A stretch of 64,000 bases of DNA, taken from positions 643,438-707,437 of the forward strand of contig CAVPHZ010000001.1 in assembly GCA_963704905.1 (NCBI GenBank), written 5' to 3'. Under the pieces are notes generated by a model, which was not told the DNA's origin, searched no databases, and worked only from the letters and a program-made list of their open reading frames with translations. The stretch is from Candidatus Chisholmbacteria bacterium (lineage in GTDB: Bacteria; Patescibacteriota; Microgenomatia; UBA1400; Chisholmbacteraceae). The position numbers were made by a program, and so were the translations under genes. This document shows, in pieces, positions 24,315-60,370 of this stretch (the first letter of the stretch is position 1; each line of letters starts with the position of its first letter).

Positions 24315-27122
24315 CTAGTATTCGTTTGACCACCAGTTTCGCATCGGATTTGAGACTCTTTTTTTCAATAGTTTTCTGAAAGGTTCAAGAGGTTTAGTGG
24401 TAAAGCTGAGGGTAATAGTAATGATGATTGTGAGTAGACTCATAGTCGGCAACCCCCAAGTTGTGAGGTTACCTCTAAATCTGAGATCGACTTCTATCGA
24501 ACTTTGCCAAAGGTCTTTTGGAATTGGAATGTACATGAAGCCAAAACTTGCTTTAAGAATTGGAGCTTTGGATCCATTTACCGTTGCCTTCCAGCCTGGA
24601 TGGTAATTTTCTTTAAACATGATACCGGTAGCGTTGGTGGTTCTGATATTGACTGTTGAGGGGTTTGGACGCTCTACGAGGAAATCTCCGGTGGTGATGT
24701 CTGTCTGTGCCACATCTTCCATGATGTTGGCAAGAAGTTCTACCTCTTCAAAGTTGTTGTAACTGATAATGTGGTAGGGCAAGTTGAAGCCCGAGAAGAT
24801 AATTTTACCTTCACCGATAGTACCTTCTGAGAGAATTGGACGGTTGTTTTGCAGAAGCACTGGAGTGACCCATTCTTCAAGCTGTGTTTGGCTAGAAGGG
24901 GCTACGATTTTCCAGGCATCTTGTCCGTAGCGAAGCGGAGCAAATTGGGATTTGTTTATGCCTTGGATTAGCGGTGAGTTCAGCTCTTTGAGCTGCCATT
25001 CTGATTCTTCATCGTACAGCTCAAGCGATTCTATTCCAGGAACTTGCGGTATATTTGTGCCATATTTTTCTACAGCTCCAATATCTACATACACAAGTCC
25101 ACCATTTTCGATGAATGTTTCTATGGTTTGCCACTCGGATCCGGTGAATTGATATAACACCAATGCGTCGACTTGGTTGAGGAGCTGTTGATTTAGATCA
25201 TTTATTGATTCAGGTCCTTTGATGAGGATGAGATTTTTTAAGGCTGGATAAGTAAATGAAAATGCCCGTAACAAGGTGTCGTAGCCAGATCGGTCTGTGA
25301 CGGTGAGGACACGACCTGCATTGGTTGGGGTGATTATTGGGGAAGTGTACTCTCTGCTCAGCTCGGAAAATGTCCAATTCTTGAGTTTTTCATCCTTTGC
25401 AATTAGACCTCTCATCCCAATGATATCGGAGTCGTATCCCACGAGATCTGCACCTACCGATTCTGATGACTCATGGATGTAGCCGATCCCATATGCTTCC
25501 AGAAGTGAGAGACCTCGATTTTTTCTCAGCCTTTCGGGAGTTTGGTCGTCAGGAGTGGGAGTGAGCAGGGACTTTTGGAAGAAAAAGAGCCAGTCTTGAC
25601 CGGATTCTGGAGGAAGGTTGGCGTACCCCCTTATTGAGGGGGTATTTGAATACGCATTCCACCAGATATAAAAATTGGGACGAATGCTTTCAACACGCCA
25701 GTTATGATCATTTACAGGCATCCAATTGGGAATGACTTCTGAGGTTGGAGACTCTTGATATTTTTCAATAATATATTTTTCAAGCCCGGCTGGAATTGTG
25801 GCGGAGATGGGAGTGACTCGAGTAATGTCAAAGCGAAGCGTGTTTGAAACGATTGGTAGCGAAAGCGCGATGAGAATGACAAAGACAGAGCTAGTCATGG
25901 TTGCGATTTTTTCGTCCAAGGATTTAATTCTTCCAAAAGCCGTTGCTGCTAGGGTGAGAATAGATAGACTCAGAGCCCAAAACATTTGTTGAGGGGCAAA
26001 TTCTCCTGAAATGTTGTTGATAAGCTTGAGTTTTGCGAGCATCACGAAGGTTACCAGCCATACGATTATGATCGTTAGACTTTTTAGTTGACTTGGTGTT
26101 GAAGTGCGTTTTTTCCAGATGAGATAGATCAATGGCAATAGGAATGTTGCAACTGGAATAAGCATTGTGAGGCTAAACCAGCGAAGGTCTTCCGGGTAGT
26201 TACCCCAGCAAAGAAGATTGTTACATGGACCAGCAGTTGTGCCTGCGATTTGGCCGTTTATTAATTGAAATGAGACTGGTAGCGAGGCTAGTATGGCAAT
26301 ACCTAAAAACAAGACAATCTGACTAGCCTTTGTTTTGAATGGCTGTTTGTCTGAGAAAAAGAGAAATATGAGTACCGGTATGATAATGGTTATGATGGCA
26401 GAGATTGGATGGAGGAGGAGAGCAGCTGCAGCAAGTAGTGCAGCGGTAGTGAGATAGCCATGCTTTCGACGAAATGAGAATTTACTGATGAGTAGGAGGA
26501 TGATTGGAAGTAGCAGAGCGACACTTGAAATAGGAATTGTTCCCTTGACAACGACGTTGAAGTAGGTAGCAGGAGTGATAAGCAGAATGAAGGTGAATAT
26601 GAGAGCAACGAGAATGCTTCTACTCTTTTCAAAAAAGAGGATGATCGCACTTATTAGATAGAAAAGGATCATCAGCATTGCAGCAAGTTGCAGGCTGGTG
26701 ACAGTGTCGAGAAAATGGGTAAGTGGTGAAATGAGATAGTAGAAGAGTGTGGGGTAGCCACCAATTACTGGCACACCTTCATTCCAGAATGACATCCAGC
26801 CGGTTGGAGGAAATGGTTTTTGTTGGGAGATGAATTTGAACAGTGTTAGGTCGTTGAGGAACAAGCCGCCGAAGACCTGGTTTGCTTCAAGGTAGGGTTT
26901 GGCAATTCTAATGTACCAGATGACAGTGATGAGGATTGCTGAGCATGCCAGAAGTACTAGGTTGAAACCTTCTTTGGCGAGTGATGCGAGTAATTTTTTT
27001 TTAAATTCAGTTTCGGATTGTTGCTCAACTTGTTTTGTAACAGCAAGTTTTGAAACAAAGGTTCTGGTACGTTGTCTTCGATTGAATGATCTTCGCTTCG
27101 TCATACTTTTGTTGTTTTCCAT
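24315..27122 (-). CDS. Giant GT-C-like polytopic membrane protein, third paralog of the 7245/11233 family
   Basis: Acidic first-loop 'FLNDLTLF', 'NFYIWWNAYSNTPSIRGYANLPP', 'VDALVLYQFTGSEWQTIETFIENGGLVYVDIGA', 'FKENYHPGWKATVNGS'. Confidence 0.6.
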   Translation of the reverse strand: MENNKSMTKRRSFNRRQRTRTFVSKLAVTKQVEQQSETEFKKKLLASLAKEGFNLVLLACSAILITVIWYIRIAKPYLEANQVFGGLFLNDLTLFKFISQQKPFPPTGWMSFWNEGVPVIGGYPTLFYYLISPLTHFLDTVTSLQLAAMLMILFYLISAIILFFEKSRSILVALIFTFILLITPATYFNVVVKGTIPISSVALLLPIILLLISKFSFRRKHGYLTTAALLAAAALLLHPISAIITIIIPVLIFLFFSDKQPFKTKASQIVLFLGIAILASLPVSFQLINGQIAGTTAGPCNNLLCWGNYPEDLRWFSLTMLIPVATFLLPLIYLIWKKRTSTPSQLKSLTIIIVWLVTFVMLAKLKLINNISGEFAPQQMFWALSLSILTLAATAFGRIKSLDEKIATMTSSVFVILIALSLPIVSNTLRFDITRVTPISATIPAGLEKYIIEKYQESPTSEVIPNWMPVNDHNWRVESIRPNFYIWWNAYSNTPSIRGYANLPPESGQDWLFFFQKSLLTPTPDDQTPERLRKNRGLSLLEAYGIGYIHESSESVGADLVGYDSDIIGMRGLIAKDEKLKNWTFSELSREYTSPIITPTNAGRVLTVTDRSGYDTLLRAFSFTYPALKNLILIKGPESINDLNQQLLNQVDALVLYQFTGSEWQTIETFIENGGLVYVDIGAVEKYGTNIPQVPGIESLELYDEESEWQLKELNSPLIQGINKSQFAPLRYGQDAWKIVAPSSQTQLEEWVTPVLLQNNRPILSEGTIGEGKIIFSGFNLPYHIISYNNFEEVELLANIMEDVAQTDITTGDFLVERPNPSTVNIRTTNATGIMFKENYHPGWKATVNGSKAPILKASFGFMYIPIPKDLWQSSIEVDLRFRGNLTTWGLPTMSLLTIIITITLSFTTKPLEPFRKLLKKRVSNPMRNWWSNEY

Positions 27123-27907
27123 TTAATGACTAGAAGCAACTTCACAGTGAGAAAAGCAACAGTATGGAGTGGTTGGCGCATTAGCTTTAACTTGTGTTTC
27201 CATAAAGGTGCCAATCGGTGTATGAAATTTGACTGCAGGTTAAATACCCTTGGGTGTTTGTCAGCGTACATTTTGATATGTTGGGTGTAGTACCACTTGC
27301 GACTGATATTTTTTTGCAATCCTACGGGCTCGTGATGAAGGAGATGTTGTTTAGATCTCGTGATCGATGCTTTGTCGTTTTGAAGACGGAGACATAAGTC
27401 CCAGTCTTCACCGGCGATGAGGTTTTCATCGAATCCGTCAAGTTTTTTGAAAACGGTTTTTTTTATGAGACGGGGAGATTCTATGAGTGGATCGCCTTGA
27501 TAGCAGTTGCGCTCCAAGGCTATGGATTTTCCCCAGAAATCATGACCAATTGCTTGCTCTGGAATGATCACTGCATCACTATTTATTTCGGCTAGCTTCT
27601 CAAGTTCATGCAATAGTTTATGCGGGAGTTCCATGTCTGCATCCAAAAACAGGAGATATTTGCCTTTGGCTTTGGCTGCCCCTTGGTTTTTTTGTGTTGA
27701 GCGTTCGGGACCGAGGTTGACTATAGAATATGGAATATTGAATTTTGCATGTTTAATAAGTTTCGTTGCCTCTGAAACTGTTTTGTCAGTTGAGAAGTTA
27801 TCTACGATGATGATTTCTTCGGGGAGCACTGAACTTTTGAGGATACTTTTGAGAAGGCGGGGAAGATTCTGTTGCTCGTTTTTGGTGTTGATGATGATGG
27901 AAATCAT
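27101..27907 (-). CDS. Family 2 glycosyltransferase
   Basis: 'MISIIINTKNEQQNLPRLL...IIVDNFSTDKT...FLDADMELP' GT2 signature. Confidence 0.75.
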   Translation of the reverse strand: MISIIINTKNEQQNLPRLLKSILKSSVLPEEIIIVDNFSTDKTVSEATKLIKHAKFNIPYSIVNLGPERSTQKNQGAAKAKGKYLLFLDADMELPHKLLHELEKLAEINSDAVIIPEQAIGHDFWGKSIALERNCYQGDPLIESPRLIKKTVFKKLDGFDENLIAGEDWDLCLRLQNDKASITRSKQHLLHHEPVGLQKNISRKWYYTQHIKMYADKHPRVFNLQSNFIHRLAPLWKHKLKLMRQPLHTVAFLTVKLLLVIKWKTTKV

Positions 27908-27932
27908 GTGAATTACAGTTAATTGCCAGTGA

Positions 27933-29060
27933 TCAGTGATCAGCAGTTTTATTTATTGCATTTAGAAACTCATCCGTGGTTCGGCTCCATGTGAATTGGG
28001 TGGCATAGGTTATGGCATTGTTGCTCAACCTGGCCCGTAATTTTGGATTGTCAATAAGTTTATTCATCAGACTGGCTACTGATTGAGGTTTATTTTGCTT
28101 AGAGAGCAAACCGGTTCGATTATTTTGAATCGAATCCACTATTCCTGTGACTACATAGGCAATTGATGGGGTGCCGAGGCTGGCGGCTTCGATGATGTTT
28201 AATCCCCAACCTTCTTTTACTGAAGTAGAGAGGATTGCCCAAGAGGAGGCGAGCAGTCTGCGTTTGTCTTCCTCGCTCACAAAGCCGTGAATTTGGACGT
28301 TGTTGTTGAGGTTGAGCTGATTGATTTTATCTTGTAGAAAGCGGATGTAGCTAGGCTTTCCTCGGCCGAGTATGTGCAGTTGGGACTGTGGCGTTTTCTG
28401 TTGAACAATGGCGAAGGCTTTGATGGTTTCTTCGATCCGTTTCATGGGGGTGATTCGACCGAGCGAAATGAACGTTGGGCGTTTCGATTTTGTGTGTGTG
28501 CTTTTTCGTGGGAGAGTAATTCCGGGGGTGATGGTGTGAACATTTTTAACTCCTAGTAATTTAAACTCACTAGCTACTGAGGCTGAGATGACGATAAAGT
28601 GGTGGTTTTGAAATTTGGCTATGTAGGTTCTTTCAAGCATTTTACCGATGAGGTTTCCTGGAAAGGGGACCTCGTAATCCCAGATTTTGTCAGCAAACTC
28701 GAGAGGAAAAAGGATCGTTGGTATGATCGAATAGAGAGGGGTGAAAGAGGGAAGGCCGTGAATTTGATCGACGATGATGTCTGGATTCGGTTCATGAGAA
28801 CGGATAATTTTTCGTACTTCAGATAAGAATAGTGGCCAGCGAAGGTAGCTGGTGAAGTTTGTGGGATAAAAATCTGTAGGACGGATAATACTAACACCAT
28901 TGATTGATTCGCGAGCACTCGCATTCGGATATTTACCGCTGACAATGGTAATTTTGTGACCTCGTTTAACCAACCTTTTGGCAATCTCGTGCGTGAGGAT
29001 TTCCGCTCCACCTGAGAGCGGGTTTTTTATGTCTCGCCATGAGGTAACGAGGATGTGCAT
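27933..29060 (-). CDS. GT4-family glycosyltransferase (start at MHILVTS; ORF extends to 29105)
   Basis: 'EGWGLNIIEAASLGTPSIAY' GT4 motif; GT-B N-domain 'ILVTSWRDIKNPLSGGAE'. Confidence 0.7.
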   Translation of the reverse strand: MHILVTSWRDIKNPLSGGAEILTHEIAKRLVKRGHKITIVSGKYPNASARESINGVSIIRPTDFYPTNFTSYLRWPLFLSEVRKIIRSHEPNPDIIVDQIHGLPSFTPLYSIIPTILFPLEFADKIWDYEVPFPGNLIGKMLERTYIAKFQNHHFIVISASVASEFKLLGVKNVHTITPGITLPRKSTHTKSKRPTFISLGRITPMKRIEETIKAFAIVQQKTPQSQLHILGRGKPSYIRFLQDKINQLNLNNNVQIHGFVSEEDKRRLLASSWAILSTSVKEGWGLNIIEAASLGTPSIAYVVTGIVDSIQNNRTGLLSKQNKPQSVASLMNKLIDNPKLRARLSNNAITYATQFTWSRTTDEFLNAINKTADH

Positions 29061-29110
29061 GGTGGGGCGATTGTAACACGGCTTTTTCTCGTTTGTTATA
29101 ATCAAGTCAT

Positions 29111-29476
29111 ATGGGTGAGGAAGAGAGCATAGGGAAACAAGCTTTTAACTTTCGTTGGGCAACTAATAGTCAGAAAGAGAAATTTGCGTATGTGGACGAT
29201 GAAGCCAGGAGTCTTCGTTTGTTTGTAAAACCTATTCGAGGTCCAGGTGGTAGTGGGGAGTTACAGATTGCACTATTTAGGATAAAGGATGGACACGTGA
29301 TTGATGAGCTTGGAAATGTATTTGAAAAGGGTACAGAAGAGGATGTCGCCGAAGCAGTTGATACCTATATGGCTCGGCTTGGCCAAGTAAAGAAACCTGA
29401 GGATATCTTTGAAGACTCCTATGAAGCTACGCGTCTGTCCTTAAGAAAGATGGCAAAACAATTTGCTGATGAATGA
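29111..29476 (+). CDS. Hypothetical acidic protein (121 aa)
   Basis: Single ORF on the opposite strand inside the glyco island; no motif recognised. Confidence 0.35.
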   Translation: MGEEESIGKQAFNFRWATNSQKEKFAYVDDEARSLRLFVKPIRGPGGSGELQIALFRIKDGHVIDELGNVFEKGTEEDVAEAVDTYMARLGQVKKPEDIFEDSYEATRLSLRKMAKQFADE

Positions 29477-29480
29477 AATG

Positions 29481-30407
29481 CTAGCTTTGTTCGGCAGAGA
29501 AGATGATGCCGCTGGTGGGGATTTCTATGCTTGATGGGGTATCCAGTGAAGGTTCTAAAATTCTGCTCTTTTTCTCTTTAGCGGATGGTTTAGGTTTATC
29601 TGGAAATATAAACACCTCGGAAGGTGAATCATCTACATATTTGCCATTGATCACGGGGATTTTCTGTAGTTCGTCTTGCGTTAGTTCCCGATTATAGAAT
29701 TGGAGGACGTTTTTTCTATAGAAAATTGCCAGTGTCTCGGTGAGCATGTTCAAAACAACTCTCCAGTTGATGTGTGACTTTCCTGGTTTCCAGTTCATGT
29801 GGACTGGAGCCTCAAGAATTTTATTGAATCCTAAGTGGCTGGCTACTACCAGAATTTCCAGGTCGCAGGTCCACTTTTTCACTATCAGCCGAGGCATGAC
29901 CGCTTTGAGGACATGACGCTTAAACATTTTCAGACCAACCTGCGTATCGGTAACATTGAGATTGAATATCATCCTGATGAGCTGCTGATATCCCCAAGAA
30001 TACAAGCGCCGACGGGGGCCGTACTCAACTTGGCTTAAACGATGGCGTTTGCTGCCAATGACTATATCGATATCAGCAAAGGTGATGAGGTCAATGTACA
30101 AAGCAATTTGTCTGGGATGAAGCTGGAGATCTGAGTCCATAAAGCAAATAAGATCTCCCTGTGATTGCTGAAACCCATAGCGCAGGGCAAATCCTTTCCC
30201 TTGGTTTTTGGCGTAGATGAAGGTTCTGAGATGCGGGAGGGAGAGGCTATTTAATTGGGTTGTGGTGATGGCATCGGAACCATCATTGACCGCGATGATT
30301 TCGTAGGGAAGTCCAGTGCTTTGCAGTTCTTCATCAACAACAATAATATTCTTATGAATTTTGGGTTCATTATAGACAGGAAGGATCAGTGAAACCTTCG
30401 GTCTCAT
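29481..30407 (-). CDS. Family 2 glycosyltransferase, polyprenol-phosphate sugar synthase-like (Dpm1/GtrB-like)
   Basis: 'VSLILPVYNEP...IIAVNDGSDA...FMDSDLQ' plus basic C-terminal extension as in Dpm1/GtrB-type enzymes. Confidence 0.65.
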   Translation of the reverse strand: MRPKVSLILPVYNEPKIHKNIIVVDEELQSTGLPYEIIAVNDGSDAITTTQLNSLSLPHLRTFIYAKNQGKGFALRYGFQQSQGDLICFMDSDLQLHPRQIALYIDLITFADIDIVIGSKRHRLSQVEYGPRRRLYSWGYQQLIRMIFNLNVTDTQVGLKMFKRHVLKAVMPRLIVKKWTCDLEILVVASHLGFNKILEAPVHMNWKPGKSHINWRVVLNMLTETLAIFYRKNVLQFYNRELTQDELQKIPVINGKYVDDSPSEVFIFPDKPKPSAKEKKSRILEPSLDTPSSIEIPTSGIIFSAEQS

Positions 30408-30515
30408 ATTACCGAGAGCTTAACAGAGTAGTCGACCATACTTCAAGTCTTCTAGTAAGAATTATGGGGGTACAATATGCTTTCATTTGCCGGAAAAGGG
30501 TATAATTTTCAAATC

Positions 30516-31412
30516 ATGAAGAAATATCTGTTAGTCATCGCTAGTTTACTTTTATTGGCTTTTGTTCCTCAGTCTTCCTATGCTCAGGAATCTGAAGAGC
30601 TCTTGATGACTGAGGCAACGGAGAGTGCGGAAGCGACACCAGCTTCTATTCTTGAAAGTGAGTTGGAAAAACTCAAGGAAACTGATTTGACTGAGCCAAC
30701 CGGTCCTGCGCGGGGAAAGCTTGAACAGTACATGCTTTCGAAAGATCCCGGCCCGTTAGGCATAACCAATTTTTTACAACATGCGATGCGCCGGTCAGTT
30801 GAGCTGGGAGTGCCGGCTACTACTTTGGTACTCTTGCTGTTGTTTCCAATCGTTGGTGCCGTTATTGCTGCAGGCAGACACTTGATTGGATTGAGAGGAT
30901 TTGGCTTGTTTACGACTGCGGCTTTATCAATTGCTTTTTTGGCAACAGGAGTGAAAGTTGGCCTGATCATGTTTATCTTTATCATGTTGGTGGCAAATTT
31001 TGGTCGTGTGATGGTGAGAAGATTGCGTTTGCAATACCTCCCGCGTATTGCACTCCTTTTATGGTTTGTTTCGCTGGGTATTTTTGCATTGCTTTCTATC
31101 TCTCCATATCTTGGAATTTTAGAGCTGATAACTATTTCTATTTTTCCAATTTTACTTCTAGTGCTGTTTGCAGAGACGTATATCGGTGCACGGATTGGAG
31201 TGGGATTTCGAAGATCTATTGAAATGACTGTTGAAACAATCGTTTTGGCTGTCATCTGCTATCTGATTTTGAGTTTGGATTCTTTGCAGCGGTTTGCCGT
31301 GCTTAATCCAGAGATGACGGTGTTATCGGTGGCGGTGTTTGATATCTTTCTGGGAAAGTATGTTGGACTGCGATTGCTTGAGTATTGGAGATTTCGTGAG
31401 CTGTTAAGCTAA
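30516..31412 (+). CDS. Secreted/7-TM membrane protein of the type usually fused to an inactive transglutaminase (7TM_transglut-like). The transglutaminase domain is missing here.
   Basis: Signal peptide 'MKKYLLVIASLLLLAFVPQSSYA', ~90-aa acidic ectodomain, then 7 hydrophobic helices. Immediately upstream of a RimK-like ATP-grasp, the gene neighbourhood described for this family. Confidence 0.5.
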   Translation: MKKYLLVIASLLLLAFVPQSSYAQESEELLMTEATESAEATPASILESELEKLKETDLTEPTGPARGKLEQYMLSKDPGPLGITNFLQHAMRRSVELGVPATTLVLLLLFPIVGAVIAAGRHLIGLRGFGLFTTAALSIAFLATGVKVGLIMFIFIMLVANFGRVMVRRLRLQYLPRIALLLWFVSLGIFALLSISPYLGILELITISIFPILLLVLFAETYIGARIGVGFRRSIEMTVETIVLAVICYLILSLDSLQRFAVLNPEMTVLSVAVFDIFLGKYVGLRLLEYWRFRELLS

Positions 31413-31421
31413 GAGGGGAAT

Positions 31422-32705
31422 ATGAGTATTACTTCGGATATTCTGGGACTCAATGCCAGAAATCATTTATACACCAGTCAATTTAATTCCCGAAAGGGGA
31501 AAAAAATTGCGCAGAGCAAACTGCTTACCAAGCGTTTTCTGAAGAAGCATGGTTTTCCTCATCCTGAGCTTTTTGCTGTATTTAAAAAATTGAATGATGT
31601 GCCAAAGTATGACTGGGGGAGTTTACGAAGAAATTTCGTGATTAAGCCAAGTGAGGGATACGGAGGAGATGGTATTCTTATCATCAAGCGCCGGATCGAC
31701 TCTGAACGATTTCAGACTATTCAAAATAAGGAACTATTGATTGATGACTTGAAACTTCATGTGCTTGATATTCTGGAGGGAAATTACAGCAAGTATGACA
31801 CACCGGATATCGCATTTATCGAAGAGCGTGTACCGAAGCATCCGAAATTTAAGCGTTATGCCTATCGAGGCACTCCGGATATCCGTATCTTAATTTTCAA
31901 CCAAGTTCCGATTATGGCCATGCTGAGATTACCGACGCAAAACTCAGGTGGGAAGGCGAATCTTCATCAAGGAGGACTGTGTGTGGGTTTAGATTTGGCT
32001 ACCGGAATTACCACGCATGGGATGATTTATGATCGCCCGGTTACTACTGTTCCAGACAGCAATTTGAAAGTTAATGGCCTTCGCATACCTCATTGGGACG
32101 AGATGCTTACCATTGCACTCAAGGTGCAGGAGAAGATTGGACTTGGATATCTGGCAGTGGATTTTGTCCTTCATAAAGACAAAGGGCCGATGGTGTTGGA
32201 GTTGACAGTGAGTGCGGGATTAGGAATTCAAATAGCCAATAGAGCTGGTTTGCGGAGAAGACTCGATCGAGTGGAGGGATTGGAGAGTGTCGGTGAGGGG
32301 CGGGGTATTCAGATTTCCAGAGCTTTGTTTGCAGAGCGATTTGCAGACAAAGTACTAGCCGAACGTGGGGCAAAGATTGTCAATATTCAAGAGACCGTCA
32401 AAGTCAAAAGTGCTAAAGGGAAGCGAGTTGAAGTTGAGGCAAAGCTTGATACCGGTGCTTTCCGTACGAGTATTGATAGAAAAGTGGCGGAGGACTTAGG
32501 TCTGTTGGGGAAGAAGAGCTATTTGTGGCATAAATATTATGTGAGTACCCTCGGGCGAGAACGACGACCGATTATTGAGTTGACGTTTTGGTTAAAAGGT
32601 CGTCGGGTAAAAACAGCAGCCAACGTATCGAATCGGATTCGATTTCGGGAGAAACTCCTGATTGGGCGAAGAGATCTCAAGACCTTTCTGGTTCGGGCAG
32701 AATAA
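31422..32705 (+). CDS. RimK-like ATP-grasp amidoligase fused to a C-terminal retropepsin-like aspartic peptidase domain
   Basis: ATP-grasp body ('VIKPSEGYGGDGILII', 'LAVDFVLHKDKGPMVLELTVSAGL'); C-terminal ~110 aa carries 'AKLDTGAFRTSI' (D-T-G-A catalytic motif, codons 32448-32456). Confidence 0.65.
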   Translation: MSITSDILGLNARNHLYTSQFNSRKGKKIAQSKLLTKRFLKKHGFPHPELFAVFKKLNDVPKYDWGSLRRNFVIKPSEGYGGDGILIIKRRIDSERFQTIQNKELLIDDLKLHVLDILEGNYSKYDTPDIAFIEERVPKHPKFKRYAYRGTPDIRILIFNQVPIMAMLRLPTQNSGGKANLHQGGLCVGLDLATGITTHGMIYDRPVTTVPDSNLKVNGLRIPHWDEMLTIALKVQEKIGLGYLAVDFVLHKDKGPMVLELTVSAGLGIQIANRAGLRRRLDRVEGLESVGEGRGIQISRALFAERFADKVLAERGAKIVNIQETVKVKSAKGKRVEVEAKLDTGAFRTSIDRKVAEDLGLLGKKSYLWHKYYVSTLGRERRPIIELTFWLKGRRVKTAANVSNRIRFREKLLIGRRDLKTFLVRAE

Positions 32706-32709
32706 TTCT

Positions 32710-34179
32710 ATGATTTCAATTTCTTCATTACCTGAAGCGAGAAACGCATTGCATGGTATTGGGAAAGTCGTAGGATTGGGAGTCAATGCTTTTCCTCGCG
32801 TTGGCATTATTCCTTTCCTTGATGATTATCAAATTATCGCTATAACCGAAACTGCTGATCTTTCCATCATTCGCAGAGATGTTTCAGTTGTAACCGTGAA
32901 TGGTGATTTTCGTGGGAGGACGAAGAAACTTAATACCCTCTCGCTACTTCAGCACCAGAAAGTGCAACAGCAGTTGAAAAAACAGAGTAAAGGAACCGGT
33001 GTTTTTATATATAAGTCGTCAAAACGAATTGAAGAGATCGTTGACCGCTTGGGTTTAAAGCTTCTGTCAAATCGCAGTGAGGTACGTGATTCCTTTGAAG
33101 ATAAATGGAAGTTTAGACAACTGGCACTGATTGCCGGATTACCCATCCCGGCAGGTGCGCAACTGTTAATAGATGAATTTACTCCAGAATGGTATGCAAC
33201 TGCGCGGAAAGCGTATGGTTCTCAATTGGTTATCCAAATTACTGATTACTCAAAAGGTGGAGGAATCGGAACCTTTTTCATTTCGAGTTTGGAGGATGTA
33301 CGAGAATTTCATGCATTTGTTAGCCGTCGGCGTAAGGCAGGGAGAGATTTACAGCGGATGAATATCACGACGCGTATTGATGGTGAGTCGGCGAGCATTA
33401 GTGCTTGTGCAACTCGTCATGGAATACTTGTTTCTCGGGTACAACGGCAGATTGTGGATGTCCATGATGTGGTTGGATATCACGGCAGGAGCGGTGTTTT
33501 TTGCGGGCATGATTGGGGAAATCGATACGGAGATGCAATTCAAAAGGAAGCCAGTAAGATCGCCCAAGATGTTGGTAAGCTGATGTTTTCCAAAGGATAT
33601 CGGGGGATATTTGGTGTTGATTTGGTTGTCAATCAACATACCGGTGATATTCATTTGATTGAGGTGAATTCTCGGTACACGGCGGCATATCCTGTATATA
33701 CCATGATGCAGCTTGCGCATGACGAAATTCCCTTAGATGCTTGGCATCTTTTGGAATTCTCTGATATTGAATATGAAATGGATTTTGATGAGATCCAGCA
33801 ACTGTATGAGCGGCCAAAGGTTGGGGCCCAGCTTATCTTGCATAACCTGGAACGAGCCTGGGTGAATGTAGGTGGAAGTGTGAAAGCAGGGGTGTATTCA
33901 TTTAGGTCAAATGCAAAAGGTCAAAAATTAAAATCCGACCTGGAATGGGTAAGGGAAGGATATAGATTTCAAGATTTGAAATCTGAAAGTGAATTTGTGT
34001 TGACAGATGGTGTGCCTAAGAGAGGATCGAAATTAAAACCAGGAGCGAGGTTAGGAAGGTTGCTCTACAGACGAGAAGTCATGCAAGATGATCGCAACGA
34101 ACTTCAATCAGAAATCAAGGGGAGTGTTCAAGCGCTGTACTCTTTATATGGTTTAAAAAGAGTTACGAAGAAAAAATAA
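32710..34179 (+). CDS. ATP-grasp ligase (start at ATG 32710, 5 nt after the upstream stop; the ORF track starts at 32662 in the same frame)
   Basis: 'GIFGVDLVVNQHTGDIHLIEVNSRYTAAYP' (E-x-N Mg-binding motif of ATP-grasp enzymes), glycine-rich 'KGGGIGTFFI'. Confidence 0.65.
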   Translation: MISISSLPEARNALHGIGKVVGLGVNAFPRVGIIPFLDDYQIIAITETADLSIIRRDVSVVTVNGDFRGRTKKLNTLSLLQHQKVQQQLKKQSKGTGVFIYKSSKRIEEIVDRLGLKLLSNRSEVRDSFEDKWKFRQLALIAGLPIPAGAQLLIDEFTPEWYATARKAYGSQLVIQITDYSKGGGIGTFFISSLEDVREFHAFVSRRRKAGRDLQRMNITTRIDGESASISACATRHGILVSRVQRQIVDVHDVVGYHGRSGVFCGHDWGNRYGDAIQKEASKIAQDVGKLMFSKGYRGIFGVDLVVNQHTGDIHLIEVNSRYTAAYPVYTMMQLAHDEIPLDAWHLLEFSDIEYEMDFDEIQQLYERPKVGAQLILHNLERAWVNVGGSVKAGVYSFRSNAKGQKLKSDLEWVREGYRFQDLKSESEFVLTDGVPKRGSKLKPGARLGRLLYRREVMQDDRNELQSEIKGSVQALYSLYGLKRVTKKK

Positions 34180-35155
34180 ACTTCAATAATTTTTCAGTAA
34201 CGGGCTGGGGTTTTCCACTATTTGGCCATTCATGAAGACGGAGCGAAGGATCAGAGTTGACTTCAAGAACCGCAATATTTAAAGGTTCGGAACCTTTAAT
34301 CGCTGGTTGGGTGTAGTCTTTGATAAGCGCGTCTATACCGCAGACTGTTAGTCCGGTTGCATGGGCAGTTTTCTCGATGACATCGATTATTGAGGTGTGA
34401 ATATCGTTTAATGAGATGGTTTCGACGGTCCCGCCCGCTTGGAAGTTGGCAATAGGGTAGGGTACAAGCTTCTTGTCTTTTGGGACTATTGAGTTCAGCG
34501 TCAGGCCTTGGTTTTCGATGTGCCAGATAATGCGAGGCCAGTTGAGCATGCGGTTTTGCATTCTCCTGCCAGTTTTCTTTCTTTCTTCTAAGAGTCTTTG
34601 GTTGTGAGTTTCTATAAGATCTTTGATTGTGTTGTTTCCGTCTCCTGTGAGCACTGGCGGATGACGGCGGACGACTCCGATTATCTTTCCGCTTAAAATG
34701 AAGAAACGAAAATCATCAGCCTTGATGTACTTTTGGATAATTAGTGAATTGGAATGCTTGATCGCCTGTCGAGCAGTATTTTCCAGAGATCGCCGATTTT
34801 TTATCCCTATGTAGACATCATGGCCTTTTTCCCCTTCGGATGGTTTTACAACCAGAGGAAATTTAGGTAGATTGACTTTCTCAAGATCTTGGATCGATTT
34901 CATCTCAGTCTCTTCTGGATAAGGAATATTAAGTTTGTCAAGGAGTTGGTGTGTGATTCTTTTGTTTCTTGTTTGTTTGATAGCTTTTACAGGATTGATT
35001 CCGTAGCTTTTTTTAGTGACGATGTGAGTTTTTCCGTCCTTGGTGAGTTTAAGCTTCAGCTTTTCTTCATCAAGAAGATCTACATTAATCCCTAGAGATT
35101 GCGCTGTTGCGATAAGAATTTGAGAGTTGGTGTTGGGAATTTTGGAGAGCAACAT
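34163..35155 (-). CDS. ATP-grasp ligase (cyanophycin-synthetase/RimK-like)
   Basis: 'LVVKPSEGEKGHDVYIG', 'IIQKYI', 'NIAVLEVNSDPSL' E-x-N motif. Confidence 0.65.
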   Translation of the reverse strand: MLLSKIPNTNSQILIATAQSLGINVDLLDEEKLKLKLTKDGKTHIVTKKSYGINPVKAIKQTRNKRITHQLLDKLNIPYPEETEMKSIQDLEKVNLPKFPLVVKPSEGEKGHDVYIGIKNRRSLENTARQAIKHSNSLIIQKYIKADDFRFFILSGKIIGVVRRHPPVLTGDGNNTIKDLIETHNQRLLEERKKTGRRMQNRMLNWPRIIWHIENQGLTLNSIVPKDKKLVPYPIANFQAGGTVETISLNDIHTSIIDVIEKTAHATGLTVCGIDALIKDYTQPAIKGSEPLNIAVLEVNSDPSLRLHEWPNSGKPQPVTEKLLKFIFSS

Positions 35156-35158
35156 TGA

Positions 35159-35716
35159 TCAGCGTTCTTGGTCAGGGTTTTCTTTAGACTGTTTTTCTTT
35201 CAGGGCACTTTCGAGTGTGGTCCACAGCTCCTTAAGTGCTCCTTTAGGCAATGATCTGACCGTTCGAAAGAACTGCATTCCGTTTTGGGTAAATTTTTCA
35301 ATGGTACCTGATTCAACCAGCTTATGTTTCTGATCTTGAATACCAATTGTGGCGTTTAGTGCGGTAACAATTTCTGCTTCTCTTTTTGGAAATTTTTCGA
35401 GTGTATGCGCTGCGGCGATCCAAGAAAATATCGTTTCAACCGCTAAGCTGTTTAGCAGCCTTTTTCCGTTTGGAAGAATAATATTTTCTGGCTCGATACC
35501 AAGCTGTTCTCGCAGATAGGCTTCCTGCCGGTCAGTATTGCTTGTACCTTTGTCTTCGATGTCTCTTTTTTTGAGCGGAACGACATAGTTTCTATCAGGT
35601 GAAGTAAGTTTTAGAACTTCTAGTTCCTGAAGATGTCTAATATCTTCAGCGGTTATCAGTCTGGTATTTTCAATCCGCTCGGCAATGGATTCTGGCTGTT
35701 GAGGTAACTCTGTCAC
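35159..35716 (-). CDS. Hypothetical protein (185 aa), translationally coupled to the downstream ATP-grasp
   Basis: Stop overlaps or abuts the next start (35159 vs 35155); no motif recognised. Confidence 0.4.
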   Translation of the reverse strand: MTELPQQPESIAERIENTRLITAEDIRHLQELEVLKLTSPDRNYVVPLKKRDIEDKGTSNTDRQEAYLREQLGIEPENIILPNGKRLLNSLAVETIFSWIAAAHTLEKFPKREAEIVTALNATIGIQDQKHKLVESGTIEKFTQNGMQFFRTVRSLPKGALKELWTTLESALKEKQSKENPDQER

Positions 35717-35786
35717 GCTAATATTCTATCTGATTAAGCAAGCGGTTGGTATAATTCATAAATCTGGTTGAAAGGATGTTTGTCTC

Positions 35787-36998
35787 ATGAAGAAATTTAT
35801 ACTTGTTCTAGGTTTTGGTCGGTCTGTGAAGCGGCTGTTTGATGTGATTGAGCGGGAGTTTTCTGAGCATACTCCTGTGTACTGTACTTATGGGAAGCGG
35901 CTGGAGTTTTTCGAGAAGAATGCGTTTTGTTTTCTAAAAAATGGGGAAGAGGAAACGCGGATTCGGACTGTTGTTGATGGAAAAGGCAAGGTGGTGGGGG
36001 TCGTAAACCTCACTGATAGTTACATTGATTTACATGGAAAGTTGGTTGATATCTTCAAGGTTCCCGGCCCTTCGTTTTCGGCTGTTAGTCTGGTGAAGAA
36101 CAAGGCTAAGTTGTTTAGGCTCATGGTTGAGAACGGTTTGGCCGACTTTCATCCCAAATCGGTGGTCATTGAGCTTAATGAGGTTGAGCACGAAATTGAG
36201 AGATTTGGCTATCCGTGCGTGCTTAAGCCGGTTGTGGGGAGCAAGAGCAGAGGAGTGTTTGTGATTCGTAGCTCCAACGGTCTTCAAAGGGCATTAAAAC
36301 GGCTCAACAAACACTTCTCGCAGATTACCATCCGTCGGAATTTGGAAGCCAAGAATGTACTTTTACAAGAGTATGTCACCGGTCAACAGGTTGCACCAGT
36401 TTCATACGTTGATGCTGAAGGTGAGCTGAGGATTATTGCCGAAGTAGACGTACTTTGTGGAACTGATGTTGGACAGCAGCATATGCAGTGTGTGTACCGA
36501 ACGACCCCTTCAGTGCTGGATAAAGCAATGATGCAGCAGATACAGCAATTACTGCAACAAATTGTGAAGGCCGCAGGGCTCAGATCGACACTGCTGGATC
36601 CTGAGCTGATGATTAGTGGGAGAGGCCTGAAACTGATGGAAATTAATGCTCGGTTGGGTGGATACCGGACAGAATTGTTTAAACCCGCATATGGGATTGA
36701 TCTAGAGAAAATGGTGGTTCAGTTGGCGCTGGGAGAGGAACTGGATATTGATTTGAAAAAGAAAGAGAGTTGTACAGCAGTTGAGGTATGGGAAGAGAAG
36801 AGCGGGAGACTCTTAGAATTTTCTTTTCCTAATCAGGATCAAGTTTATCATTATGAGCAGCTTATTCAGAAGGGTGAGGAGTATTTGGTGCCTCCTGAAG
36901 GAGATGTTCCGATTGCTTCATTTTATGTTCTGGCTCAATCAGACAGTTTGAAAAAAGCTCAGGAGATTCGGAGGACCATCTCAACCTCGATTTCTTAA
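35787..36998 (+). CDS. ATP-grasp ligase (PurK/Ddl/CPSase-type ATP-grasp_4-like)
   Basis: 'GYPCVLKPVVGSKSRGVFVI', 'LLQEYVTGQ', 'LKLMEINARLGGY' E-x-N motif. Confidence 0.65.
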   Translation: MKKFILVLGFGRSVKRLFDVIEREFSEHTPVYCTYGKRLEFFEKNAFCFLKNGEEETRIRTVVDGKGKVVGVVNLTDSYIDLHGKLVDIFKVPGPSFSAVSLVKNKAKLFRLMVENGLADFHPKSVVIELNEVEHEIERFGYPCVLKPVVGSKSRGVFVIRSSNGLQRALKRLNKHFSQITIRRNLEAKNVLLQEYVTGQQVAPVSYVDAEGELRIIAEVDVLCGTDVGQQHMQCVYRTTPSVLDKAMMQQIQQLLQQIVKAAGLRSTLLDPELMISGRGLKLMEINARLGGYRTELFKPAYGIDLEKMVVQLALGEELDIDLKKKESCTAVEVWEEKSGRLLEFSFPNQDQVYHYEQLIQKGEEYLVPPEGDVPIASFYVLAQSDSLKKAQEIRRTISTSIS

Positions 36999-41100: not shown

Positions 41101-41107
41101 TTTTATT

Positions 41108-42597
<1,490 letters not shown>

Positions 42598-42689
42598 AAG
42601 GAGTTTACATAACTCACGCAAGGTTTGTCGGAGTCCTTGTCCCGCTCGGCGGGAGAAAGAAACCGACCCTATCACATCTAAGACTAACA

Positions 42690-42790
42690 AGAATTGGTTG
42701 GAATCAGATTAAAATCGGTTGAAATTAGTTAGAATTGGTTGGAATTAGTTGCAATTAGTTTAAATCAGTCGAAGTCGGTTGGAATTTGCT
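42690..42790 (+). repeat. Degenerate 10-bp tandem repeat (about 10 units of g/t-aat-y-r-gtt-r) directly after 16S
   Basis: 'gaattggttg gaatcagatt aaaatcggtt gaaattagtt agaattggtt ggaattagtt gcaattagtt taaatcagtc gaagtcggtt ggaatttgct'. Confidence 0.7.
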
Positions 42791-42796
42791 AGAGAA

Positions 42797-42822
42797 GAAC
42801 CGCTCGGGAGAGCGGTTTTTTT
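42797..42822 (+). terminator. Rho-independent terminator after 16S and the spacer repeat
   Basis: 'gaaccgctcgggagagcggtt' perfect hairpin plus 'ttttttt'. Confidence 0.7.
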
Positions 42823-42849
42823 GTGGTGTATGGTAAGATTCGGTGCTTT

Positions 42850-43935: not shown

Positions 43936-44086
43936 GAAAGGATTTGTGTTTTTTTGAACAGCTATAGAGGGCGGTTTTTTGGTGGATTTATTGATGAAGG
44001 AGCCAAGGCTGGAAAGGAATTCTCCAAAAGTTTTTGATATTTCTCGGGAAGCCAAGTATCTGTTATCATACTCATGAAGGATATCT

Positions 44087-44302
44087 ATGAAATTTTTTGG
44101 CGTGCTCTTTGTCATCACTTCGCTGGTTTGTCTGTTTCTGGGATTTATGGGGCTCAAGGGGGATATTGACCATGATTCCTACATTCGGAAGTGGACATTG
44201 TACTGGAAGGCATCGACTCAGTCCGGATATAAAATCATTGGGATTGTGTATTTGTTTCTGGGGGGGCTGCTTTACTTTGTGGCGTTGGCGATGTTGATTT
44301 GA
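44087..44302 (+). CDS. Small 2-TM membrane protein (71 aa)
   Basis: Two hydrophobic helices; precedes obg. Confidence 0.3.
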   Translation: MKFFGVLFVITSLVCLFLGFMGLKGDIDHDSYIRKWTLYWKASTQSGYKIIGIVYLFLGGLLYFVALAMLI

Positions 44303-44411
44303 GGGTTGGGTTGAATTGTCGTTTTGAGTCTCCTAAAAAGTCTGTATGCTTTTCAGGATAAACATGAACAATGATTTTCGGTTGTTATGGCTTCTTTATA
44401 GACTCTTATAG

Positions 44412-45458
<1,047 letters not shown>

Positions 45459-45540
45459 AGTGATTCTTCATTTAATCGGTCACGATACCTCTAAAGGTGA
45501 GACCTGGTAAGGTGCTCTATGGAGGAGGTTTACATTCTTT

Positions 45541-46467: not shown

Positions 46468-46562
46468 GTCTCGGGCAGCCCGAGTGAATGTAGTGTATTG
46501 CACCTTCAGTATACTGCATTGATCAAGCCCTGTTTTTAAAGGTTCGGAACCTTAGTTTGCCA

Positions 46563-46610: not shown

Positions 46611-46619
46611 ATGGACAGA

Positions 46620-55432: not shown

Positions 55433-55439
55433 GATTTTA

Positions 55440-57371: not shown

Positions 57372-60370
<2,999 letters not shown>

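What the first reader, a model, noticed from the sequence alone, without database searches (positions are those of the whole stretch)
32390..32705. Retropepsin-type D-T-G-A domain fused to the C-terminus of the RimK-like ligase
The last ~110 residues of the 427-aa ATP-grasp carry 'VEVEAKLDTGAFRTSI' (codons at 32445-32461). D-T-G-A is the catalytic hallmark of retroviral-type aspartic peptidases. The RimK-associated 'Zn_protease' family has this fold but is usually a separate gene. A ligase-peptidase fusion implies coupled extension and trimming of a peptide substrate.
Basis: partly seen in the sequence, partly recalled or inferred. Interest (0 to 1): 0.6.

Follow-up and report, generated by a model that had tools for sequence, protein, structure and literature searches.

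The report
Peptide ligase fused to retropepsin-like protease
A gene in this small-genome (Patescibacteria-type) bacterium really does join an ATP-dependent amino-acid ligase to a retrovirus-style aspartic protease, a lineage-wide rearrangement of the recently described Rlo/Rim "add-and-trim polyglutamate" systems that puts the protease inside the cell next to the ligase.

Summary
ORF 31422-32705 (+) encodes 427 aa. Residues 13-285 are an RloC-type ATP-grasp ligase (PF14397, E=3e-64). Residues 318-427 are a retropepsin-fold domain with D343-T-G-A and a second signature, LLIGRRDL. An AlphaFold model of the tail (pLDDT 92) matches Pseudomonas RloA, Legionella DUF785, foamy-virus, Ddi1 and HIV proteases. 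DTGA is kept in 119 of 120 fused homologs. The Lys/Arg residues that bind polyglutamate in RloA are also conserved (K341, R382, R405), and the tail carries a net charge of +16.

The fusion is not a one-off. 316 species-level genomes, nearly all Microgenomates/Patescibacteria by title, encode a relative. The 80 loci examined always show the fused layout and almost always a 7TM gene (PF14402, an RloB C-half without the transglutaminase domain) directly upstream. Relatives split the same three modules differently (protease-7TM + ligase; all three in one chain; ligase-protease-MATCAP).

Most likely function: coupled extension and endoproteolytic trimming of an acidic, polyglutamate-like peptide, carried out in the cytoplasm. 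This is inferred, not shown.

It is a new variant of a known kind. RloABC and a reverse-order RimB-RimK hybrid were published in 2025. Interest is moderate.

The parts
30477..31412 (+). 7TM membrane protein gene. It corresponds to the RloB C-terminal half only, with no inactive-transglutaminase domain. It has an N-terminal hydrophobic signal/anchor, then a ~60-aa acidic low-complexity segment, then the 7TM bundle. The true start may be the internal Met at about nt 30516.
   Evidence: PF14402 7TM_transglut E=1.5e-22. The NCBIfam RloB model matches only its positions 312-506 of 508, at 64.8 bits against a cutoff of 900. Hydropathy. A homolog lies directly upstream of the fusion gene in nearly all of the 80 related loci.
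31422..32705 (+). Ligase-protease fusion gene (427 aa). It starts 9 nt after the 7TM gene stop and is preceded by GAGGGGA.
   Evidence: Full-length AF2 model with pLDDT 87.7 and pTM 0.73. More than 120 full-length homologs at 50-83% identity.
31458..32276 (+). ATP-grasp ligase domain (aa 13-285), RloC / 'sugar-transfer associated' type. K75, D247 and E260 are invariant. The third Mg-ligand position, 262, is Thr here (Asn in 64 and Thr in 56 of 120 homologs).
   Evidence: PF14397 E=2.8e-64. TIGR02291 276.6 bits over model positions 10-309 of 317. Foldseek: CphA1, ArgX/LysX and RimK at E~1e-10 to 1e-9. Column counts.
32277..32372 (+). Helical linker (aa 286-317) between the ligase and the protease. 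It has lower model confidence and no acidic tract.
   Evidence: pLDDT blocks of 61-80 in this stretch, helices at 294-303 and 308-314. Sequence.
32373..32702 (+). Retropepsin-fold aspartic peptidase domain (aa 318-427). It is all-beta with a short ordered flap hairpin, net charge +16, pI 10.7, and no Cys.
   Evidence: Tail AF2 model with pLDDT 92.3. Foldseek top hits are RloA 9g58 at 9e-7 and 2pma at 1.6e-6, followed by foamy-virus, Ddi1, ApRick, HTLV and HIV proteases. Profile against PDB sequences. 32/32 family members hit PF05618. Charge.
32448..32459 (+). D343-T-G-A346 catalytic motif. It is the only DTG in the protein, so it supplies one half-site.
32655..32678 (+). LLIGRRDL (aa 412-419): the second retropepsin signature, hydrophobic-hydrophobic-Gly-Arg-(Arg)-Asp (compare HIV PR IIGRNLL). 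G415 is invariant; R416, D418 and L419 are conserved in at least 90%.
32442..32444 (+). K341, two residues before the catalytic Asp. Equivalent to RloA_Pa K46, a polyglutamate contact.
   Evidence: The alignment to 9g58 pairs it with K26 (D28 is the catalytic Asp). Identical spacings tie 9g58 to the RloA_Pa numbering in PMC12239564. Conserved in at least 90%.
32565..32567 (+). R382, equivalent to RloA_Pa R114. R114A decreased RloA activity among the strongest effects seen and failed to rescue growth.
   Evidence: invariant; aligned with R94 of 9g58 and 9g59 and R91 of 2pma.
32634..32636 (+). R405, equivalent to RloA_Pa R137. It lies 23 residues after R382, the same spacing as in RloA, RloA2 and Lpg0085.
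32710..34179 (+). Downstream 489-aa ATP-grasp protein, a second ligase, probably in the same operon. This position is variable across relatives: usually a ~300-aa RimK-type ATP-grasp, sometimes a MATCAP/DUF1704 peptidase or DUF3541.
   Evidence: PF02655 E=1.7e-9 and PRK06524-like 164 bits. 52% identical ortholog in Chisholmbacteria locus L002. Survey of neighbours.

Best explanation
The gene encodes a bifunctional cytoplasmic enzyme. The N-terminal RloC-type ATP-grasp domain uses ATP to add amino acids, most likely glutamate, to a carboxylate, building an acidic peptide tail or a free polymer. The C-terminal RimB/RloA-type retropepsin domain is active only when two copies pair, each giving one Asp343. 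It cuts within that acidic chain, which sets its length or recycles it, and may also stimulate the ligase as RimB does for RimK. The adjacent 7TM protein is the obligatory third partner, either a membrane anchor or a conduit for the product.

Shown here: the identity of both domains, conservation of the catalytic and polyGlu-contact residues, the strongly basic protease surface, the absence of any signal or TM segment, the conserved two-gene core, and the alternative fusions of the same three modules.

Inferred: ligase and protease activity, the nature of the substrate, dimerisation, and the role of the 7TM protein.
For: - Domain identity.
- Conservation: DTGA in 119/120 homologs, with D343/G345/A346/R382/R405/G415 invariant and K341 near-invariant.
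- Substrate-contact residues: K341/R382/R405 align with RloA K46/R114/R137, whose mutation decreases polyGlu cleavage (R114A and R137A most strongly) (with PMC12239564).
- Charge: tail +16, family mean +13, against +2 for HIV PR.
- Ligase catalytic residues K75/D247/E260 are invariant.
- The closest ligase structures all act on peptide or protein carboxylates (CphA1, ArgX/LysX, RimK).
- The fusion plus an upstream 7TM gene is present in essentially all of the 80 species-level loci examined.
- Rosetta-stone relatives: protease-7TM next to an unfused 288-292-aa ATPgrasp_ST (L085-L087), a single protease-7TM-ligase chain (P0209/L084), and ligase-protease-MATCAP (P0235, P0259).
- A tandem two-protease relative (P0132, DTG at 59 and 181) shows that the working unit has two half-sites.
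- Experimental precedent: RimB trims polyGlu made by RimK and stimulates RimK, and the RimBK hybrid is active (PMC11957791). RloA cleaves stretches of 8 or more Glu, and rloB/rloC deletions suppress the loss of rloA (PMC12239564).
Against: - No biochemical data exist for any member of this fused family or for RloC's product.
- The window tail scores just below Pfam's PF05618 threshold (23.4 against 27 bits) and far below the NCBIfam RloA cutoffs.
- The ligase scores below the TIGR02291 trusted cutoff (276.6 against 314.2).
- The third Mg-ligand Asn is Thr here and in about half of the family.
- No polyacidic candidate substrate is encoded in the 64-kb window.
- The flap is much shorter than in RloA, so specificity may differ.
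- In Pseudomonas the protease acts outside the membrane, so a cytoplasmic protease may not do the same job.
Confidence: 0.6

Rival explanations
1. Different chemistry. The ATPgrasp_ST ligase does not make polyglutamate but attaches other amino acids to a cell-surface glycan or lipid-linked precursor (hence Pfam's name 'sugar-transfer associated'). The protease acts on a different, still acidic, peptide substrate linked to envelope biogenesis.
For: GT4 and GT2 glycosyltransferases and a large YfhO/PTPS-like membrane protein lie immediately upstream, and this synteny is kept in Chisholmbacteria. Several further ATP-grasp ligases are clustered here. RloC's product is unknown (PMC12239564). The Pseudomonas rlo phenotypes concern the cell envelope and cell shape.
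Against: The glycosyltransferase linkage is not seen in the more distant locus L001. The polyGlu-contact residues and the very basic surface of the protease are conserved. The nearest structural relatives of the ligase act on peptide carboxylates.
Confidence: 0.17
2. Maturation protease. As in retroviral Gag-Pol, the domain mainly cuts its own polyprotein (releasing itself from the ligase) or processes the 7TM partner, rather than trimming the ligase product.
For: Retropepsins embedded in polyproteins typically self-process (general knowledge of family A2). The linker at aa 286-317 is the least confident part of the model. Relatives carry the protease fused to the 7TM protein itself.
Against: The linker has no acidic tract of the kind RloA and RimB require (8 or more Glu). 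The RimBK hybrid was purified and was active as a hybrid protein. The linker is helical and conserved (F303 invariant, L302 and F307 conserved in at least 90%).
Confidence: 0.12
3. Non-catalytic module. The retropepsin fold serves only to dimerise the ligase, to bind the acidic product, or to activate the ligase allosterically.
For: RimB binding up-regulates RimK ATPase and poly-Glu synthesis (PMC11957791). The sequence scores against curated protease models are weak.
Against: DTGA is kept in 119/120 homologs, the GR(R)D motif is also kept, and all the substrate-contact basic residues are kept. That pattern is what purifying selection on catalysis would produce.
Confidence: 0.08
4. Artefact: a chance DTGA, or two genes merged by a frameshift or a gene-calling error.
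For: The bare tetrapeptide is not rare: 2 copies in the window against 0.63 expected.
Against: The same uninterrupted fused ORF occurs in about 75 independent genomes and in more than 120 database proteins. The domain is confidently folded.
Confidence: 0.01

Closest known systems
RloABC system of Pseudomonas (Lormand et al., mBio 2025, PMC12239564; PDB 9g58, 9g59; Legionella Lpg0085, 2pma)
   Same: It has the same three modules: a PF05618-type retropepsin-like peptidase with DTGA, a PF14402 7TM protein and a PF14397/TIGR02291-type cytoplasmic ATP-grasp, all in one operon. The polyGlu-contact residues K46/R114/R137 are conserved. RloA structures are the best fold and profile matches.
   Different: Here the protease is fused to the C-terminus of the ligase and has neither a signal peptide nor the periplasmic Cys pair, so it is cytoplasmic rather than secreted. 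The 7TM protein lacks the inactive transglutaminase domain. The flap is much shorter. The lineage is Patescibacteria, not Proteobacteria. NCBIfam trusted cutoffs for RloA, RloB and RloC are all missed.
RimBK hybrid (Desulfotalea psychrophila DP2392; Little et al., JBC 2025, PMC11957791) and the separate RimB + RimK pair
   Same: A retropepsin-like peptidase and a glutamate-ligase-type ATP-grasp sit in one cytoplasmic polypeptide or complex, and the protease is experimentally active on polyGlu tails. It offers the same logic of add-and-trim plus ligase stimulation.
   Different: The domain order is reversed (RimB is N-terminal there; the protease is C-terminal here). The ATP-grasp family differs (RimK PF08443/TIGR00768 there; PF14397 here, with TIGR00768 scoring only 49.5 against a cutoff of 143). 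There is no 7TM partner in the rim locus. The taxa differ (Flavobacteriales and Rhodobacterales against Patescibacteria). This therefore looks like an independent fusion.
Retroviral and Ddi1-type retropepsins (clan AA: HIV-1 PR, foamy virus PR, Ddi1 RVP, Rickettsia ApRick)
   Same: Same fold, DTGA active-site loop, flap hairpin and h-h-G-R-D/N motif, with one Asp per chain.
   Different: 14-25% identity. The substrate channel is highly basic (+16). The domain is attached to a ligase rather than to Gag-Pol or UBL/UBA domains.
Tubulin tyrosine ligase / MATCAP cycle (functional analogue)
   Same: An ATP-grasp ligase that extends a protein C-terminus is paired with a dedicated peptidase that removes the added residues. 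Relatives of this protein are literally fused to a MATCAP/DUF1704 domain (P0235, P0259) or are followed by one (L001).
   Different: The window locus has no MATCAP gene. The peptidase here is an aspartic endopeptidase, not a metallocarboxypeptidase. The resemblance is one of logic, not homology of the peptidase.

Membership tests
Clan AA retropepsin-like aspartic peptidases | Active-site motif hydrophobic-hydrophobic-D-T/S-G-A | tested here: met
   K-L-D343-T-G-A346. DTGA in 119/120 homologs and DSGA in 1.
Clan AA retropepsin-like aspartic peptidases | Second motif hydrophobic-hydrophobic-Gly followed by Arg-Asp/Asn | tested here: met
   L-L-I-G415-R-R-D418-L. G415 is invariant; R416 and D418 are conserved in at least 90%.
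Clan AA retropepsin-like aspartic peptidases | Retropepsin beta-barrel fold with flap hairpin | tested here: met
   Tail model with pLDDT 92.3. Foldseek PDB gives 46 hits at E<=1e-3; all 50 listed matches are retropepsin-type proteases, with TM-scores up to 0.68.
Clan AA retropepsin-like aspartic peptidases | Homodimer supplying two catalytic Asp | not testable with these tools
   There is only one DTG in the protein, and no multimer prediction was available. Indirect support: relative P0132 carries two tandem domains, and RloA and RimB act as dimers.
Pfam PF05618 (Zn_protease / RimB-like, ex-DUF785) | Score at or above the gathering threshold (27 bits) | tested here: not met
   The window tail scores 23.2-23.4 bits. 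It reaches 24.2-24.3 bits on PF13650 (GA 24.3), which is borderline.
Pfam PF05618 (Zn_protease / RimB-like, ex-DUF785) | Family-level homology to solved members (RloA, Lpg0085) | tested here: met
   32/32 tail-family members hit PF05618 at E<=0.01, the best at 1e-9. The tail profile against PDB sequences gives 9g59 at 7e-7, 9g58 at 1.7e-4 and 2pma at 2.6e-3. These are also the top fold hits.
RloA (NCBIfam NF052262/3/4; secreted osmotic-stress retropepsins) | Trusted-cutoff score (210-280 bits) | tested here: not met
   19-25 bits, partial alignments only.
RloA (NCBIfam NF052262/3/4; secreted osmotic-stress retropepsins) | N-terminal signal peptide and conserved periplasmic disulfide pair | tested here: not met
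   There is no hydrophobic segment anywhere in the 427-aa protein. The tail contains no Cys (sequence). The feature is defined in PMC12239564.
RloA / RimB functional class (polyglutamate endopeptidase) | Basic residues lining the channel (RloA K46, R114, R137) | tested here: met
   K341, R382 and R405 align to them and are invariant or near-invariant. Net charge is +16.
RloA / RimB functional class (polyglutamate endopeptidase) | Cleavage of stretches of 8 or more consecutive Glu, abolished by Asp mutation | not testable with these tools
   This needs an enzyme assay.
RloC / TIGR02291 alpha-L-glutamate ligase-like | Trusted-cutoff score (314.2 bits) | tested here: not met
   276.6 bits, E=2e-82, aligned over model positions 10-309 of 317. 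It is the closest family, but the score is below the equivalog cutoff.
Pfam PF14397 ATPgrasp_ST | Gathering threshold (31.4 bits), full-length domain | tested here: met
   217.4 bits over model positions 2-277 of 278.
RimK (TIGR00768 / PF08443) | Trusted cutoff of the RimK subfamily (143.4 bits) | tested here: not met
   49.5 bits. PF08443 matches only aa 226-267, at 26.1 bits. RimK structures are fold neighbours at E~1e-9.
RimBK hybrid (PMC11957791) | RimB domain N-terminal to a RimK domain | tested here: not met
   The order here is ligase (aa 13-285) then protease (aa 318-427), and the ligase is not of the RimK family.
RloB (NF052267; inactive transglutaminase fused to 7TM) | Periplasmic inactive transglutaminase domain plus 7TM domain | tested here: not met
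   Only the 7TM half matches (model positions 312-506 of 508; 64.8 bits against a cutoff of 900). PF14402 is met at 80.7 bits. The extracytoplasmic part is a ~60-aa low-complexity segment.

The most novel reading that the evidence does not exclude
The same protease module sits outside the membrane in Pseudomonas (secreted RloA) and in protease-7TM fusions (one carrying a Herpetosiphonaceae label), but inside, welded to the ligase, in Patescibacteria. If both arrangements do the same job, the substrate must be reachable from both faces of the membrane. That would make the RloB-type 7TM protein a translocase for a ligase-made polyanionic peptide, and the Rlo family an unrecognised pathway for making, exporting and length-trimming a non-ribosomal acidic polymer. 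The Patescibacteria two-gene version would then be the minimal, biochemically most tractable form.
Probability: 0.15. Interest if true: 0.7.

Novelty: new variant of a known kind. Interest (0 to 1): 0.42.

Why it matters
The Rlo system was named only in 2025. Its ligase product, its physiological protease substrate and the role of its 7TM protein are all unknown, even though it controls osmotic tolerance, biofilm formation and antibiotic sensitivity in Pseudomonas.

The fused, transglutaminase-less, two-gene version found here, and the other module partitions found around it, give independent genomic proof that ligase, protease and 7TM protein act on one substrate. They show that the transglutaminase domain is dispensable, and that the protease can work on the cytoplasmic side.

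A single soluble 427-aa polypeptide carrying both activities is an attractive object for working out what RloC-type ligases make. The finding also corrects database annotation: these proteins are named only as 'ATP-grasp' or 'hypothetical', with the protease unmentioned.

Tried and rejected
- Second half-site in cis: none. There is a single DTG at 343, and the tail profile finds no other copy in any window ORF.
- The other DTGA in the window (nt 13441, in the 1012-aa ORF 11233-14271) is a chance match: no profile hit and no Pfam family.
- Candidate polyacidic substrates encoded in the window: none. The only hits were a DEEEE in ORF 62998-63933 (-) and a 64-aa ORF ending in EE.
- Frameshift or merged-gene artefact: rejected, because about 75 independent loci carry the same fused ORF.
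- Short 105-160-aa 'standalone' hits in the exhaustive search: the two inspected (P0122, P0125) begin inside the ligase-protease linker, so they look like fragments of fused genes rather than free proteases.
- Exact look-up of the window protein's contig: not on record.
- The 2009 comparative-genomics paper on amidoligases that, from memory, first linked these modules could not be retrieved. Any earlier mention of the fusion there is therefore unchecked.
- Full-text searches for PF14397, PF14402 and TIGR02291 found no papers. Neither 2025 paper mentions Patescibacteria or Chloroflexota.
Full report

Yes. ORF 31422-32705 on the + strand encodes 427 aa. 'VEVEAKLDTGAFRTSI' is residues 336-351, and D-T-G-A is residues 343-346, nt 32448-32459. 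The tetrapeptide alone proves nothing: it occurs twice in the six-frame translation of the window, against 0.63 expected in shuffles. The second copy, in an orphan 1012-aa ORF, is not recognised by a profile of the tail. What makes this copy real is everything around it.

**2. What the protein is**

Pfam assigns residues 13-285 to PF14397 (ATPgrasp_ST, E=2.8e-64). NCBIfam aligns residues 5-304 almost end to end with TIGR02291 'alpha-L-glutamate ligase-like protein' (276.6 bits, below the 314.2 trusted cutoff). That is the family of RloC.

The last ~110 residues give weak single-sequence hits:
- PF13650, 24.3 bits, right at its cutoff
- PF05618, 23.2 bits against a cutoff of 27
- the three NCBIfam RloA models, E~1e-5

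The family-level evidence is much stronger:
- 120 full-length fused homologs (50-83% identical) keep DTGA in 119 cases and DSGA in the other.
- In their alignment, D343, G345, A346, S350, G378, R382, G393, R405 and G415 are invariant.
- A second retropepsin signature, hydrophobic-hydrophobic-G-R-(R)-D-L, is present at 412-419.
- All 32 sampled tails hit PF05618 at E<=0.01, the best at 1e-9.
- A profile of the tails finds the RloA crystal structures in the PDB sequence set: 9g59 at 7e-7 and 9g58 at 1.7e-4. It also finds Legionella Lpg0085/DUF785 (2pma) and, more weakly, the Rickettsia retropepsin ApRick.

An AlphaFold2 model of the tail alone is confident (pLDDT 92.3). Its best Foldseek matches in the PDB are RloA (9e-7) and 2pma, followed by foamy-virus protease, RloA2, Ddi1 RVP domains, ApRick, and HTLV, HIV, FIV and EIAV proteases. 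There are 46 hits at E<=1e-3, and all 50 listed matches are retropepsin-type proteases.

The full-length model (pLDDT 87.7, pTM 0.73) shows an ATP-grasp body. Its nearest solved relatives are the cyanophycin synthetase G domain, ArgX/LysX and RimK, all of which act on peptide or protein carboxylates.

**3. Is the active site plausible, and what would it cut?**

In the profile-to-PDB alignment, the tail's K341, D343, R382 and R405 pair with K26, D28, R94 and R117 of P. fluorescens RloA. The spacings D to R (66) and D to R (89) are identical to D48/R114/R137 in the P. aeruginosa RloA numbering used by Lormand et al. The 23-residue Arg-Arg spacing is also seen in RloA2 and Lpg0085.

In that paper, K46, R114 and R137 are the pseudosymmetric contacts to an octaglutamate substrate. 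R114A and R137A had the strongest effects on activity and failed to rescue growth. RloA cleaves only stretches of 8 or more Glu (PMC12239564).

The tail is extremely basic: net +16 over 110 aa, pI 10.7, family mean +13, against +2 for HIV-1 protease. The inference is that the substrate is an acidic, polyglutamate-like peptide.

On the ligase side, the ATP-binding Lys (K75) and the Mg ligands D247 and E260 are invariant. The third ligand position is Asn in 64 and Thr in 56 of the 120 homologs, and it is Thr here. That is a caveat but clearly a tolerated family state.

**4. Surroundings and relatives**

The gene directly upstream (30477-31412, 9-nt spacer) is a PF14402 7TM protein that matches only the C-terminal 7TM half of RloB. 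An N-terminal signal/anchor and a ~60-aa acidic low-complexity segment stand where the inactive transglutaminase domain would be.

A scan of one genome per species found 316 genomes encoding a relative of the tail. The 80 best are, by title, Chisholm-, Woese-, Shapiro- and Beckwithbacteria and other Microgenomates/Patescibacteria. A number of MAGs carry 'Gammaproteobacteria', 'Bathyarchaeia' or 'Methanoperedens' labels that I distrust; one is a 615-kb 'chromosome'.

In all ~75 loci with complete genes, the tail is part of a 420-515-aa fused ORF. A 7TM homolog lies immediately upstream in all but one or two.

The downstream position varies: most often a ~300-aa RimK-type ATP-grasp (PF08443), sometimes the 480-aa ATP-grasp seen here, a cyanophycin-synthetase-like ATP-grasp, DUF3541, or a MATCAP/DUF1704 metallopeptidase.

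An exhaustive profile search of 1.84 billion cluster representatives found 1,474 clusters at E<=1e-3. It also revealed other partitions of the same modules:

| Arrangement | Examples |
|---|---|
| protease-7TM (~380 aa) | P0201, P0212; a 90%-identity cluster-mate of P0201 is labelled Herpetosiphonaceae |
| two tandem proteases-7TM | P0132 |
| protease-7TM-ATPgrasp_ST in one 657-aa chain | P0209 |
| ATPgrasp_ST-protease-MATCAP (~800 aa) | P0235, P0259 |

Where the protease is fused to the 7TM protein, the next gene is an unfused 288-292-aa ATPgrasp_ST (L085-L087). So ligase, protease and 7TM protein form one functional unit whose parts have been joined in at least four ways. This is a classic Rosetta-stone pattern.

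**5. Topology**

In the protease-7TM(-ligase) proteins, a hydrophobic anchor precedes the protease. By the odd number of following helices, the protease would then be outside and the C-terminal ligase inside. This matches Pseudomonas, where RloA is secreted and RloC is cytoplasmic.

The window protein has no hydrophobic segment at all, and the tail has no cysteines. It therefore lacks the periplasmic disulfide of RloA and resembles cytosolic RimB in that respect. The Patescibacteria version thus has the protease on the cytoplasmic side, physically tied to the ligase.

**6. Mechanism (inferred)**

By analogy with RimB/RimK, the most likely function has three parts:
- The ligase extends an acidic peptide.
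- The protease domain, paired with a second copy through oligomerisation of the enzyme, cuts inside that chain and so limits or recycles it. It may also activate the ligase.
- The 7TM protein anchors the complex or passes on the product.

The analogy rests on three published results. [quoted passage not shown] A natural RimB-RimK hybrid is an active protease (PMC11957791). In Pseudomonas, loss of rloB or rloC suppresses the loss of all RloA proteases (PMC12239564).

The tandem-protease relative P0132 supports the idea that two half-sites are needed.

Rivals:
- A different ligase product tied to the neighbouring glycosyltransferase cluster.
- A self-processing or partner-processing protease.
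- A catalytically silent dimerisation or activation module.
- An artefact. Only this one is excluded by the data.

**7. Comparison with what is known, and novelty**

The system is closest to RloABC. It fails the defining features of each named component:
- no signal peptide or disulfide, so it is not RloA;
- no transglutaminase domain, so the partner is not RloB;
- below the trusted cutoff for RloC.

It is also not a RimBK hybrid: the domain order is reversed, the ATP-grasp family is different, and a 7TM partner is present.

Ligase-retropepsin fusion as a principle is published (2025). The three-module association is embodied in Pfam and NCBIfam models, and from memory it was predicted by earlier comparative genomics that I could not retrieve.

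The following points were not found in the two 2025 papers or in full-text searches:
- the RloC-type ligase-protease fusion itself;
- its near-universal presence in a large Patescibacteria clade;
- the loss of the transglutaminase domain;
- the inside-versus-outside flip of the protease.

Public records name these proteins only by their ligase half.

Verdict: a real feature, correctly read, and a new variant of a known kind. It is of moderate interest, mainly as a lever on the unsolved Rlo mechanism.

Noticed in passing
window 31422-36998: Four ATP-grasp genes lie within 5.6 kb: the fusion; a 489-aa PRK06524-like one at 32710-34179 (+); a 330-aa one resembling the cyanophycin-synthetase / GshAB ATP-grasp module at 34163-35155 (-); and a 403-aa ATP-grasp_4 at 35787-36998 (+). 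A 185-aa ORF with no family (35159-35716, -) sits among them. The first three and the 185-aa ORF are syntenic in Chisholmbacteria locus L002.
   Followed up: partly
window 24315-30407: A cell-surface glycan cluster lies immediately upstream on the opposite strand: a 935-aa YfhO/PTPS-related membrane protein, two GT2 glycosyltransferases and one GT4, plus a 121-aa ORF without a family (29111-29476). The synteny is kept in Chisholmbacteria (L002/L003) but not in the more distant L001.
   Followed up: partly
window 41102-60611: The rRNA genes are unlinked or stretched. 16S is at 41102-42595 and 23S at 57385-60364 (5S at 60495-60611), about 14.8 kb apart. Protein genes lie between them, including Obg (44439-45458) and a 1239-aa PKD-repeat protein. 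tRNA-Ile (55440) and tRNA-Ala (57047) are themselves separated by 1.5 kb holding two ORFs (137 and 190 aa) with no Pfam family.
   Followed up: partly
window 49322-53041 (-) and 50828-52828 (+): A 666-aa ORF runs antisense inside the 1239-aa PKD-repeat ORF. That is unusually long for a shadow ORF at 44% GC. It has no credible Pfam match, so it is probably a by-product of the repeat composition.
   Followed up: partly
window 11233-14271 (+): A 1012-aa ORF with no Pfam family contains the only other DTGA in the window (nt 13441). It is not related to the protease domain.
   Followed up: partly
P0235 (798 aa), P0259 (800 aa); L001 7315-8742: Relatives carry a triple fusion of ATPgrasp_ST, retropepsin and MATCAP/DUF1704 (a tubulin-detyrosinase-type metallopeptidase with HExxH), or have a separate MATCAP gene right after the fusion. 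That is a ligase with both an endo- and a carboxypeptidase editor. P0259 is annotated in GenBank as 'ketopantoate hydroxymethyltransferase', which looks wrong.
   Followed up: partly
P0132 (487 aa); L086 4001-5464, L087 2798-4261: Two tandem retropepsin domains (DTG at 59 and 181) are fused to the 7TM domain. This is a single-chain pseudo-dimer, reminiscent of the duplication proposed to have given rise to pepsins.
   Followed up: partly
P0174 (539 aa): A class I lysyl-tRNA synthetase domain is followed by a C-terminal copy of this retropepsin domain. It may be a real fusion or a merged gene call.
   Followed up: no
L006, L008, L017, L066 and others; L007, L024, L068: Many MAGs carrying this Patescibacteria-type locus are titled 'uncultured Gammaproteobacteria/Pseudomonadales', 'Bathyarchaeia' or 'Methanoperedens'. 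One 'Gammaproteobacteria' record is a 615-kb complete chromosome. These are probably taxonomic mislabels or mis-binned contigs.
   Followed up: no
window 32205-32207 (residue 262 of the fusion): The canonical ATP-grasp E-x-N third metal ligand is Thr in the window protein and in 56 of 120 homologs (Asn in 64). This splits the family into two states, and the consequence is unknown.
   Followed up: partly
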